From assembly GCA_951406725.2 (NCBI GenBank), contig OX597830.1, forward strand, positions 75,144,001 through 75,208,000: a stretch of DNA of 64,000 nucleotides, read 5' to 3'. The stretch comes from Octopus vulgaris. Lineage: Eukaryota. The position numbers were made by a program, and so were the translations under genes. Of this stretch, positions 25,883 through 29,766 are shown piece after piece. Under the pieces are notes generated by a model. It saw only the letters and a program-made list of their open reading frames with translations. It searched no databases and had not been told where the DNA came from. Numbering within the stretch: the first letter of the stretch is position 1; every line of letters begins with the position of its first letter.

Positions 25883-26444
25883 TAATAATAATGATAACAA
25901 GAACAACAACAACAACAAAATTTTCCCGACGACAGATCTCCAAAACTGTTGTTATTTTTAATATCGTGACTTTCCATTAATTAGATAAAAGTCCGATAAT
26001 TTTAATTATAATGTCTTGTTTATAGTAAATATCTTCAACAAATATTTATTTATGAAATTGTCGCAAAATCTTTGTTTAACATTTTATCTTTTTTTTTTTA
26101 CCACAATGTTTTTTTTTTGTTTTTGGTGAATTAATACATTTATATATTTTTAATTTATTTCCTCATTAATATTTTTAATTTTTAATTACTTTTTACATTT
26201 AGTTTACGGGAATAAAATTAATTTTTTTTGCTGTAGCATTACTGCATTTTAAAAGTCATTCGTTAATTATCGTAACATATGTGTTTATTTGTTATAGACT
26301 TGTTGCTTTGGGAATAAACTGAAATAGTAAGGGTTAGACGAGTATGTTTAAATATAGGGAGAGTTTACGAAAATAAACAAAAGACGAAGACAGGTGGTGT
26401 GCAAAACAAACAGACGTATTGGTATAACGCTCAGAAATAGTAAA

Positions 26445-26486
26445 GTCTTTTACGTTTCGAGCCTACGCTCTTCTACAGAAAGGGAC
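26445..26486 (-). ncRNA. Degenerate minimal type I hammerhead-like motif
   Basis: cttt CTGTAGA A GAGC-gtag-GCTC GAAA CG TA aaag. Stems I and II pair, but the core has U at the invariant A6 position. Confidence 0.4.
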
Positions 26487-27907
26487 ACAGAAAAAAAACA
26501 AGGAGACAATAAAAATGTGTGTAGTGGCTAAGTGTAAAATGTCAGTGTATTCGGGCATTCACTAACGATTTTCCATAACTAGAGGAAACCTAGAACTTAT
26601 TTCTCTTTAAACCTTGTAATTATTCTATTGTCTCTTTTGCAGAACTTCTAAGTGACCGGGACATATCAAGTGGTGGTGTTGGTGGGGGCCAAGTACAAAT
26701 ACAAAGACACAAGCACTCACATATATAGATACACACACACACACACACACATATATATGTCTATCTATTTACCTATCTATCTATATCTATATATGTGTGT
26801 GTGTCTGTCTGTGTATATATATATATATATCAATACAAAATGGGACAAGAACGCAAAATATCCGGACAGTTAGGTGATACAAAAAGGAACAAAAAAACAT
26901 CCAATTAGACGATACAAAGAAAACATGGACGGGCCATTCGAAGTTTTATTTTCACAGTCAAGCATCAGATTATCCTCGCAATTTCGACTGATTATTCTTG
27001 AGATTGCTCCAATCTGGCCATCCCTAAGGAAAAACTAAGCTAAGAGCATTAGATTCCTTGGAAGAATGCAGCGAATGTATAAAAAAAACAAGGATAGAAA
27101 AACGGACAATTTTACACAAATATAAATATAATAAAAATAATAACAGGACATAACAACATGTGTCTTTCGACTAAGGATGAATTGAATTAAGCTTACGCGT
27201 TTGGAAATGAAGCCTTACGGAGATACAAAGATTTCACAAACACACGTGGGAAGAGAAGAGAGAGAAGTAGATGGACAGAAGAATTAAAGAGGGGCGAGAA
27301 AAACTGACAGGGACACAGTGAATTGAAAAGTTGATGGAAAGTGAGTAAGAAGAGAAAGCAAAGAAATGTGAGAGAGGGGGAACGAAAGAACGTGGAGTGG
27401 ATTGAACGAATAAAAGTGAAAGGGTATATATTCCGGTATATATTTTATCGAATACTCTATTCTGAATCATTAAATTATTTTAGAAGTAAACACAACAACT
27501 CATTCTAAGATAATTACCGTTGTTACAACACCGGATTATCATTCTAGGGCCAAATAAAAAAAACAGAACATCATAATTTACAGTTCCTATCTTAATTATA
27601 AGTGTTCCTTTACTTATTTACAATAGAAAGGATAAGAACGAGACTATAAAACGAATGAGGTGATTAAAAATATTTTTTTTTATTTTGTTATGGCGAAAAC
27701 ATAATATGTTAACATACTCCGCAGCTAAACATTCATTTGAAATATTTTAGCTGCAATAAATATCAAAAATATGTAAATTCACTTAAAATTCAAAGAGCAA
27801 TGCAGATTCACATGTATTAGTTACCTTTGTTGCATACATCCATGCGCATATTTCTTTACAAGCACCTATACAGATTCACTTGCATATATATGTATAGATG
27901 CATATTA

Positions 27908-27960
<53 letters not shown>

Positions 27961-27964
<4 letters not shown>

Positions 27965-28331
27965 AATATTAGGGAATAAATCCAAATTTACAGGAAAAAA
28001 TCAGATTTAGGATTAAATCCAATTTTATAGTAAAATATTATAAAATATTATTAGAGACAAAACCACTATTTTGCAAAACAAACAAGGAAAGACTTAATCA
28101 ATACATAAAATTTTAATAAATAGTCAAAAAAACCGCCACTACAATTGTTTCTTGTCTTGATCGACAATCTTCAGGTGGACTTCCAATAAATCAGTTTCAA
28201 ATTTGAAACTGATAAGATTGTCGATCAAGACAAGAAACAATTGTAGTGGCGTTTTTTGACTATTTATTAAAATTTTATGTATTATTAAGTCTTTCCTTGT
28301 TTGTTTTGCAAAATAGTGGTTTTGTCTCTAA

Positions 28332-28337
<6 letters not shown>
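27961..28337 (-). mobile_element. Penelope-like pLTR-type foldback element, family 1, copy 1
   Basis: Inverted arms ~28045-28201 and 28202-28337 with a spacerless centre and an ~18-bp gap in the right arm; unpaired ~85-bp tail 27961-28044; (AT)n on both sides; carries a hammerhead. PLE assignment is inferred from architecture only. Confidence 0.7.
28136..28178 (-). ncRNA. Minimal type I hammerhead ribozyme (canonical core)
   Basis: ccac CTGAAGA ttgtc-gatcaa-gacaa GAAAC aatt GTA gtgg: stem I ccac/gtgg, stem II ttgtc/gacaa, 2-bp stem III with palindromic AATT loop, GUA triplet. Confidence 0.88.
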
Positions 28338-28385
<48 letters not shown>

Positions 28386-28412
28386 ATAACACGTATATAT
28401 ATATAAATATAA

Positions 28413-28472
<60 letters not shown>

Positions 28473-28477
<5 letters not shown>

Positions 28478-28950
28478 TAGTTATCGCCATACTAATATGG
28501 CAGTCTTATAAATATAAGACTAAAGCTGTCGCTGATTAGCTCCATGGGGCCATCGTCTCAAGCTAGCTATTTGACACACGAACCTGCGTCCATTACAAAC
28601 CTTCGAACAAGGGAGGTCAGCCGCTTCATCCTGCCAATCAGACAGCTACAGACTACGCTGCATTGATAAGGGACAACAACCCGGAAACGTCTGTAGCTGT
28701 CTGACTGGCAGGATGAAGCGGCTGACCTCCCTTGTTCGAAGGTTTGTAATGGACGCAGGTTCGTGTGTCAAATAGCTAGCTTGAGATGATGGCCTCATGG
28801 TGCTAATCAGCGACAGCTTTAGTCTTATATTTATAAGACTGCCATATTAGTATGGCGATAACTATTAATTTCCAGTAACGCTGCCGTAATCTCTTTAGAG
28901 AGACTTAGTAATTTTAATATGAGTACCTATATCGCCAATGATAGAAGTCG
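28473..28950 (+). mobile_element. Penelope-like foldback element, family 2 (181-bp arms)
   Basis: Arms 28473-28653 and 28689-28869 (about 4 mismatches by eye), 35-nt loop, unpaired tail 28870-28950, (AT)n on both sides; homologous to 52630-52778. Confidence 0.72.
28657..28697 (+). ncRNA. Variant minimal hammerhead (U3-A8 core)
   Basis: gctgca TTGATAA ggg-acaacaa-ccc g GAAA CG TC tgtagc: 6-bp stem I (one G-U), GUC triplet, palindromic ACGT stem III, one extra G before GAAA. Confidence 0.6.
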
Positions 28951-28977
28951 AATATATATATATATATATATATATAT

Positions 28978-29363
28978 AATAAATATTAGGGAATAAATCC
29001 AAATTTACAGGGAAAAAATCAGATTTAGGATTAAATCCAATTTTATAGTAAAATATTATATAATATTAATTCGAGACAAAAGCCACTATTTTGCAAAACA
29101 AACAAGGAAAGACTTAATCAATACATAAAATTTTAATAGAAAGTAAATAAACCGCCACTACAATCGTTTCATGTCTTCAAATGACATTCGTCAGATGGAT
29201 TTCCGATTTTCAAATCAGTTTCAATTTATGAAGTGAAGTTAAACTCTAGCCGTTATAACGTCAAACAAAATTACGTTTATTTACTTTATATTAAAATTTT
29301 ATGTATTGATTAAGTCTTTCCTTGTTTGTTTGGCAAAATAGTGGTTTTGTCTCGAATTAATAT

Positions 29364-29366
<3 letters not shown>
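28978..29366 (-). mobile_element. Penelope-like pLTR-type foldback element, family 1, copy 2
   Basis: Near-identical to 27961-28180 over ~200 bp; inverted arm 29275-29366; flanked by (AT)n. Confidence 0.7.
29155..29198 (-). ncRNA. Minimal type I hammerhead ribozyme (canonical core)
   Basis: ccat CTGACGA atgtc-atttgaa-gacat GAAAC gatt GTA gtgg; stem II covaries relative to the 28136 copy. Confidence 0.88.
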
Positions 29367-29420
<54 letters not shown>

Positions 29421-29766
29421 GTATGTATATATATATGAATATATACATATGTATGTATGTGTAATTAATGTTGAAATGAGAAATAAGAAAAGGTGCTAAG
29501 AATGCAGAAAAGTTTTGAAATCATTTGTATTTCGGTCGCAAAGGCATGTCTTCAGAAGAATACATTCACAGAAGTGTGTACTTACATTTTGGATAGTCAA
29601 AATGTTATCCAAAATGCTATCCAAAATAACTGGAGTTATGTAAATAGACATTTCGTTGGATGTGTGCTTATGAAGATAGGCCTTTGCGCCTCAGAAATAT
29701 TAAGGTCTTTTAAAATTCTCTGCATTTTCAGAAACGTTTCTCATTTCGCATTTCATACATTTTATG

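What the first reader, a model, noticed from the sequence alone, without database searches (positions are those of the whole stretch)
27960..29366. Cluster of three hammerhead-bearing foldback elements inserted in (AT)n tracts
Seen: three ~380-480-bp elements of two unrelated families lie side by side, each bounded by (AT)n, each built as long arm + inverted arm + unpaired tail, each with a minimal type I hammerhead motif and no ORF. Known: Penelope-like elements carry minimal hammerheads in pLTRs and generate inverted partial copies; retrozymes are non-coding hammerhead retroelements. Inference: a microsatellite-targeting, non-autonomous ribozyme/hairpin retroelement system, possibly not described in this lineage. 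They could also be ordinary truncated PLE ends.
Basis: partly seen in the sequence, partly recalled or inferred. Interest (0 to 1): 0.85.

Follow-up and report, generated by a model that had tools for sequence, protein, structure and literature searches.

The report
Spliced Penelope foldbacks beside a retrozyme
The three hairpin-shaped insertions are by-products of Penelope-type jumping genes: two are short, intron-less copies of the end repeat of a coding element found intact elsewhere in the genome, one is a non-coding tandem parasite, and the mix of intron-less short and intron-keeping long copies likely shows which RNAs these elements copy.

Summary
In detail: three foldback insertions in (TA)n, each with one minimal type I hammerhead and no ORF. 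They are not one system.

E1 and E3 (family A) are pseudo-LTR (pLTR) copies of a coding Penelope-like element (PLE) with Hydra-clade motifs; open frames of 821-862 aa lie elsewhere in the genome. Long copies keep a GT-AG intron of mostly 1.0-1.9 kb just before the ribozyme. E3 carries the exact exon-exon junction and E1 carries it with one substitution. So do 66 of the first 100 ribozyme hits on one contig. In contrast, 22 of 22 pLTRs that run into the ORF are unspliced.

E2 (family B) comes from a 363-bp non-coding head-to-tail unit (at least 1,015 junctions) with a U3-A8 hammerhead, i.e. a non-LTR-retrozyme-like parasite; its partner enzyme is unknown.

Inverted arm, one-sided tail, (TA)n bias and minimal hammerheads are published PLE features. 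Mass retrotransposition of spliced sense RNA beside intron-keeping long copies did not turn up in my literature searches, and it bears on the open question of PLE intron retention. Cleavage and expression are untested.

The parts
27884..27969 (.). (TA)n target tract, left of E1
27961..28034 (-). E1 3' tail (segment between the two fixed 3' end points of family A)
27961..28187 (-). E1 exon 2 (ribozyme, arm, tail); 98.7-99.1% identical to the pLTR of ORF-bearing parents L322 and L318
28136..28178 (-). E1 minimal type I hammerhead, C3-G8 core, GUA site, palindromic helix III (dimer-type)
28188..28205 (-). E1 exon 1 remnant joined to exon 2 at the position of the parent's GT-AG intron (one substitution next to the junction)
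28198..28343 (+). E1 inverted second arm, no tail, 18-bp deletion through the ribozyme 5' half
28334..28474 (.). (TA)n tract between E1 and E2
28473..28653 (-). E2 inverted arm (family B), 181 bp, 98% complementary to 28689-28869
28654..28920 (+). E2 sense arm with ribozyme, arm and tail (28870-28920); part of the 363-bp family B tandem unit
28657..28697 (+). E2 minimal type I hammerhead with U3-A8 core, GUC site, palindromic helix III
28921..28951 (.). 31 bp of non-family DNA between E2 and the next (TA)n; origin not traced
28952..28986 (.). (TA)n tract left of E3
28978..29207 (-). E3 exon 2 (ribozyme, arm, tail), another subfamily of family A; 95% identical to L238
29155..29198 (-). E3 minimal type I hammerhead, C3-G8 core, GUA site
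29208..29275 (-). E3 exon 1 plus about 40 nt upstream of the usual 5' end; 98.5% identical to L238, where it lies about 1.04 kb from exon 2; exact exon-exon junction at 29208/29207
29275..29369 (+). E3 inverted second arm, 95 bp, no ribozyme, no tail
29360..29458 (.). (TA)n tract right of E3

Best explanation
E1 and E3 are short intron-less copies of the pLTR of a coding Penelope-like element with Hydra-clade motifs, likely reverse-transcribed from its spliced sense RNA, and E2 is a piece of an unrelated 363-bp non-coding tandem unit that is likely moved by a Penelope-type enzyme; the three likely landed separately in one (TA)n-rich spot. SHOWN: parent elements with open RT plus GIY-YIG frames; a GT-AG intron in long copies and its exact absence in short ones, with each subfamily using its own donor; two fixed 3' end points followed by (TA)n; a tail on one arm only; tandem arrays of family B. 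INFERRED: the endonuclease nicks both strands of (TA)n; reverse transcription starts at two internal sites (arm end and tail end), one per strand; both cDNAs run to near the RNA 5' end and join head to head through microhomology, which gives the foldback. Priming on the 5' end of the spliced mRNA would give only about 250-nt dead copies. Full-length copies would come from unspliced RNA longer than one unit or circular, probably cut by dimeric hammerheads. Family B would roll on a small circular or multimeric RNA.
For: Parent: open frames of 821-862 aa among 151 matches; layout pLTR, ATG about 75 nt after the tail motif, ORF, 3' UTR, exon 1, intron, pLTR; E1 exon 2 98.7-99.1% identical to these pLTRs. 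Splicing: donors GTAAGT or GTATGT and acceptor TTTAG in long copies; six exon-1 end variants occur both before a donor in long copies and joined to exon 2 in short copies (matched by eye); some short copies use a second donor 4 nt on (L258, L374). Counts: 573 of 2,031 ribozyme-core matches carry the acceptor; first 100 hits on C1: 32 unspliced, 66 spliced, 2 cut at the junction. 22 of 23 pLTRs that read past the tail are unspliced and go on into the ORF; the 23rd is a short spliced foldback ending about 25 nt past the tail. 64 of 68 acceptor-less arms end at or after an initiator-like +1, 55 of them within +1 to +16. 30 of 33 foldbacks have a tail on one arm, 3 on none, 0 on both. (TA)n after 87 of 100 3' ends against 7-8% background. 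Ribozyme core 98.8% conserved against 73.6% in loop II in 98 arms not picked on the core; the free position 7 varies. Family B: period 360-363 bp, arrays of up to five junctions, 1,015 junctions; 67 of 81 3' ends fall at two points; 44 of 44 readable cores are U3-A8. Literature.
Against: Pfam found neither RT nor GIY-YIG in two ORF pieces of a broken family A copy; the assignment rests on motifs and 31-42% identical homologues, with no tree against reference clades. The unit is 6.0-6.8 kb, while Hydra elements are described as generally under 3 kb. The extra G at the 5' end (105 copies against 73 with A or T) is ambiguous: about 20 of the 30 read sit at a foldback joint where the other arm can supply the G (by eye). 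4 of 68 arms of the sample, and E3 itself, reach upstream of +1. In family B only 45 of 67 ends at the two fixed points are followed directly by (TA)n, and 11 of 55 units had no readable ribozyme. No coding parent of family B was found among 100 coding PLE loci. The unselected family A sample is the first 100 hits on one contig.
Confidence: 0.85

Rival explanations
1. The short family A copies are a self-propagating SINE-like lineage: the intron was lost once or a few times, and short master copies are now transcribed and copied on their own.
For: Spliced copies outnumber unspliced ones about 2 to 1 and some are 99-100% alike.
Against: Six subfamily variants each occur in both forms with matching donors. 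L524 carries about 25 nt found only where a pLTR runs into the ORF. 5' ends and turn points differ from copy to copy.
Confidence: 0.12
2. E2 is the end of an autonomous PLE that I did not find, not a non-autonomous unit.
For: Neptune-like ORF pieces adjoin family B at three places (L033, L043, L214), and coding Neptune-like families in this genome also have U3-A8 cores.
Against: The tail leads straight into the next 363-bp unit at 1,015 pattern matches, nearly all of the 100 listed ending in G; the longest ORF on the tandem is 68 aa and there is no DNA match to 100 coding PLE loci.
Confidence: 0.15
3. The elements are MITE- or foldback-type DNA transposons with terminal inverted repeats and TA targets, and the ribozymes are incidental.
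For: Inverted arms, TA-rich flanks, no ORF.
Against: Arms are unequal and turn points vary; 18 of 51 family A loci are single-armed; the arm is the pLTR of an RT element and has lost an intron precisely.
Confidence: 0.02
4. The palindromes are assembly or library artefacts.
For: Short-read contigs cannot span them: no listed piece bridges the stretch.
Against: Arms differ by substitutions and deletions (97-98%); the same one-sided tail recurs in 30 of 33 foldbacks; ends fall on fixed points of the element.
Confidence: 0.03

Closest known systems
Hydra-clade PLEs, including Hydra-1_Obim of Octopus bimaculoides (Craig et al. 2021, PMC8557442; read: passages, sections 11 and 15, supplement passages)
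   Same: DKT, GLYRDD, CxCX5C linker, CxxC and CxH, no CCHH, C-terminal GIY-YIG, hammerhead, (TA)n targets.
   Different: A different family from Hydra-1_Obim (compared by eye with the supplement; that one is 2,507 bp with no pLTR seen). Here the unit is 6.0-6.8 kb with an Asn-rich ORF insert, a long 3' UTR and a large pLTR intron, and most ribozyme-bearing arms are spliced and short.
Penelope of Drosophila virilis (Schostak et al. 2008, PMC2377424, passages; Cervera and de la Pena 2014, PMC4209133, first half of text)
   Same: Start site in the pLTR, 5' UTR intron ending next to hammerhead helix I, inverted pLTR and tail; minimal dimer-type hammerheads, U3-A8 variant and opposite-strand pairs 100-700 bp apart are reported for PLEs.
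   Different: Intron 75 bp there, mostly 1.0-1.9 kb here. Those texts stress that genomic copies keep the intron; here intron-less genomic copies are the majority.
Poseidon PAc of Anolis (Frangieh et al. 2024, PMC11167929; first half of text)
   Same: Cuts and extends both target strands in AT-rich DNA, starts reverse transcription at two internal sites that define the tail, and does not need ribozyme cleavage. This fits two fixed 3' ends and copies that read through an uncut ribozyme.
   Different: Different clade; start sites lie inside the ORF there and before the ATG here; shown in vitro there, only inferred from copies here.
Metazoan non-LTR retrozymes (Cervera and de la Pena 2020, PMC7229834, passages; Li, Clavereau and Pollet 2026, bioRxiv 10.64898/2026.07.22.740005, parts 1-3 of 5)
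   Same: Non-coding head-to-tail units of 170-400 nt with a type I hammerhead, living beside PLEs and proposed to be moved by them.
   Different: Family B has a minimal U3-A8 ribozyme rather than a classical one and shows PLE-style insertion marks (two fixed ends, one-sided tail, inverted arms, (TA)n). Circular RNA is not shown here.
Adineta vaga Penelope families (Arkhipova et al. 2013, PMC3846280; passages)
   Same: Head-to-head inverted pLTRs with palindromic joints, tail, Asn-rich ORF inserts, an initiator-like TCACT in the pLTR.
   Different: That paper favours self-priming on an antisense template to explain head-to-head repeats and intron retention, and leaves it open. Here head-to-head foldbacks often have both arms spliced, which points to a sense template.

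Membership tests
Hydra-clade PLE (parent of E1, E3) | Single ORF with RT and C-terminal GIY-YIG endonuclease | tested here: met
   839-aa frame with GLYRDD and VVY...YIG. Pfam gave no RT or GIY-YIG hit on pieces of a broken copy.
Hydra-clade PLE (parent of E1, E3) | DKT instead of DKG; GxKF/Y not conserved | tested here: met
   SDKT; GLKF seen only in the two Neptune-like rows.
Hydra-clade PLE (parent of E1, E3) | RWK motif | tested here: inconclusive
   Reads RIKWKA, aligned with RMRWKA of homologues.
Hydra-clade PLE (parent of E1, E3) | CxCX5C linker, CxxC and CxH, CCHH absent | tested here: met
   CTCRDKSNC, CYLC, CRH.
Hydra-clade PLE (parent of E1, E3) | Hammerhead in the pLTR and (TA)n insertion | tested here: met
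Hydra-clade PLE (parent of E1, E3) | Generally short, under 3 kb (descriptive, not diagnostic) | tested here: not met
   Ribozyme-to-ribozyme 6.0-6.8 kb in the intact-ORF copies.
Hydra-clade PLE (parent of E1, E3) | Placement in the Hydra clade of an RT tree | not tested
   Reference sequences were seen only as supplement text; no tree was built.
Non-LTR retrozyme (E2, family B) | Non-coding head-to-tail unit of 170-400 nt | tested here: met
   360-363 bp, arrays of up to five junctions, longest ORF 68 aa.
Non-LTR retrozyme (E2, family B) | Type I hammerhead in each unit | tested here: met
   44 of 55 units match the motif; 11 are mutated or cut short.
Non-LTR retrozyme (E2, family B) | Classical rather than minimal hammerhead (2020 definition) | tested here: not met
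   Minimal type with U3-A8 core and palindromic helix III; the 2026 preprint admits minimal motifs.
Non-LTR retrozyme (E2, family B) | Self-cleavage and circular RNA | not testable with these tools
   Needs transcripts; only contigs were available.
MITE or foldback DNA transposon | Fixed terminal inverted repeats at both ends, no RNA step | tested here: not met
   Unequal arms, 18 of 51 single-armed loci, exact intron loss.

The most novel reading that the evidence does not exclude
This PLE copies two different RNAs with opposite outcomes. Its spliced, capped mRNA is primed from both target strands at two sites in its own 5' leader and yields over a thousand short dead foldbacks, while only unspliced, ribozyme-cut multimeric or circular RNA yields working copies. 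Intron retention in Penelope-like elements would then come from template choice, not from an antisense template, and the foldback would be the genomic trace of twin priming.
Probability: 0.45. Interest if true: 0.72.

Novelty: new variant of a known kind. Interest (0 to 1): 0.5.

Why it matters
Why Penelope-like elements keep introns, and how their head-to-head repeats and tails arise, are stated open questions (PMC8557442 section 15; PMC3846280). This family supplies more than a thousand natural products sorted by splice state, with intact parents, so the template question can be tested by counting copies and by long-read RNA sequencing. Family B shows a retrozyme-like unit with PLE insertion marks in an invertebrate, a case the 2026 preprint says it did not examine closely. 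For annotation, these repeats look like MITEs or microRNA hairpins and could be misfiled. The cluster itself is ordinary.

Tried and rejected
Rfam found nothing at gathering score; weak hits were generic hairpin (microRNA) models, none a hammerhead.

Neptune-like coding PLEs of this genome (753-850 aa) were tested as parents of A and B: no DNA match.

A shared mobilised cluster was rejected because A and B rarely co-occur.

Folding z-scores of the isolated ribozymes were uninformative.

A cap-derived G at the 5' end stays unproven.

Sequencing runs: no RNA holder on record was listed. The contigs laid show both families in four runs but cannot show expression, splicing or the palindromes.

Earlier scan findings: none.

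Literature searches for intron-less PLE copies, cap G or twin priming returned no paper that describes them in what I read. The library lacks most subscription papers (for example Arkhipova 2003 and 2006, not seen), and the preprint's supplements were not seen.

Samples are the 40 best-scoring candidates and were not used for the main proportions. Three arms were reclassed by eye as spliced (two in L371, one in L395).

Full report
Observation. The region holds three insertions separated by (TA)n tracts. E1 and E3 are one family (A) and E2 another (B). A descriptor scan of the 64-kb window gave exactly two zero-mismatch type I hammerheads, in E1 and E3, and a U3-A8 variant in E2. None has an ORF over 50 aa. 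Rfam does not detect them.

Host and copy number. The window lies in a 2.8-Gb assembly of 227 contigs. An octopus-like cephalopod is likely (inference from genome size and a 63%-identical fragment in an Octopus bimaculoides protein). Family A has 2,031 exact ribozyme-core matches and 3,495 arm matches, with controls at 0; these count arms, not insertions. Family B has 67 matches for E2's subfamily, 509 for a sister pattern and 1,015 tail-end matches not followed by T, nearly all of the 100 listed leading into a next unit.

Family A has a coding parent. Following the 5' side of E3 led to long copies and then to open frames of 821-862 aa. Their layout is pLTR, ATG about 75 nt after the tail motif, ORF, long 3' UTR, exon 1, intron, pLTR, in a unit of 6.0-6.8 kb. 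The protein has DKT, GLYRDD, CxCX5C, CxxC and CxH and no CCHH, the features given for the Hydra clade. Pfam did not recognise pieces of a broken copy and no tree was built, so membership rests on motifs. It is a different family from the published Hydra-1_Obim (by eye). E1's exon 2 is 98.7-99.1% identical to these pLTRs.

The short copies are spliced. Long copies carry a GT-AG intron (0.6-1.9 kb, mostly over 1 kb) ending a few bases before helix I. E3 has the exact exon-exon junction, and E1 has it with one substitution. E1's subfamily uses a GTAAGT donor and E3's a GTATGT donor 4 nt further on, and short copies match the donor of their own subfamily. Six exon-1 variants occur in both forms, and a few copies use the second donor. 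Genome-wide, 573 of 2,031 core matches keep the acceptor. Of the first 100 hits on contig C1, 32 are unspliced, 66 spliced and 2 cut at the junction (three reclassed by eye). Of 23 pLTRs that read past the tail, 22 are unspliced and continue into the ORF; the other is a short spliced foldback that stops about 25 nt past the tail. No spliced copy among my loci reached more than about 70 nt upstream of exon 1.

Ends. Of 68 arms without the acceptor, 8 stop at an initiator-like +1, 35 at +2 to +8, 12 at +9 to +16, 9 nearer the junction, and 4 go past +1. This suggests an RNA 5' end there (inference). An extra G before +1 is commoner than A or T (105 against 73), but most of the 30 read can be explained by the opposite arm, so capping is only suggested. 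At the 3' side, 93 of 100 arms have a recognisable arm end or tail end, and 87 of 100 are followed by (TA)n against 7-8% background. Among 51 loci without the intron, 33 are foldbacks; 30 have a tail on one arm, 3 on neither, none on both.

Ribozymes. In 98 family A arms not selected on the core, core positions are 98.8% conserved, loop II 73.6% and the downstream arm 95.8%; position 7 varies freely. Helix III is self-complementary and pairs between two copies in co-folding, as described for dimer-type minimal hammerheads. Copies read through the cleavage site, in line with the report that uncut RNA is the main substrate of a Poseidon element in vitro. Activity was not tested.

Family B. It is a 360-363-bp head-to-tail unit with arrays of up to five junctions. 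In 52 loci, 29 have both strands; 67 of 81 3' ends fall at two points (about 300 and 360), and 45 of those 67 are followed by (TA)n; 5' ends are scattered and often run into the preceding unit. All 44 readable cores of 55 units are U3-A8, with position 7 varying and mostly palindromic helix III. No coding parent was found among 100 coding PLE loci. Neptune-like ORF pieces adjoin B at three places and Neptune-like families here share the U3-A8 core, which makes them the likelier partner (about 55%, inference); the family A protein remains possible.

The cluster. A and B seldom share a locus (0 of 21, 0 of 30, 2 of 98, 3 of 118), and E1 and E3 belong to different subfamilies. Three separate insertions into one (TA)n-rich spot is the simplest reading.

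Mechanism. Shown: parent, intron loss, fixed ends, one-sided tails, tandem B. Inferred: both target strands are nicked and extended from two internal start sites, as shown for PAc; the two cDNAs meet head to head; spliced mRNA gives only short products because the start sites lie in its leader; working copies come from unspliced multimeric or circular RNA, as proposed for ribozyme-cut PLE RNA.

Comparison and novelty. Inverted 5'-truncated copies, a one-sided tail, (TA)n bias, minimal and U3-A8 hammerheads, opposite-strand pairs, a pLTR intron beside the ribozyme and PLE-derived retrozymes are all in print. What I did not find (open-access library only) is a PLE whose genomic copies are mostly spliced while ORF-linked ones are not. 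That argues against an antisense template as the reason for intron retention in this family. Verdict: known kind, new families, one variant of real mechanistic interest; interest 0.5.

Noticed in passing
L155 2682-5009 (-), L157 2842-5184 (+), L169, L170: Several Neptune-like PLE families with open frames of 753-850 aa, some with an overlapping upstream ORF; two of them carry U3-A8 minimal hammerheads, and one shows the same (TA)n ends and tail.
   Followed up: partly
L033, L043, L214: Family B joined directly or nearly directly to Neptune-like ORF pieces; possible template-switch or two-RNA insertions.
   Followed up: partly
L322 1912-4428 (+): The family A ORF has an Asn-rich insert of about 100 aa between the RT thumb and the linker, like the inserts described in Adineta Penelope families.
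   Followed up: no
L333 (G000:C1:87558000-87567900), and other hits near 55% identity: A second, more distant Hydra-like family with an 832-aa frame (one stop) that does not share the family A pLTR motifs.
   Followed up: no
L174, L178, L066, L067, L369: Spliced copies that start about 60-70 nt upstream of the usual 5' end; possibly a second start site.
   Followed up: partly
window 26440-26490 (-), 11464 (+), 34225 (+): Three one-mismatch hammerhead-like motifs elsewhere in the window; could be chance or old PLE ends.
   Followed up: no
L062, L063, L064: A 386-448-aa frame with a zinc-knuckle-like motif (Pfam E 0.02) next to family B at two loci, and LTR-retrotransposon-like pol pieces in L062.
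   Followed up: no
window 28921-28951: 31 bp of unassigned DNA between E2's tail and the next (TA)n tract.
   Followed up: no
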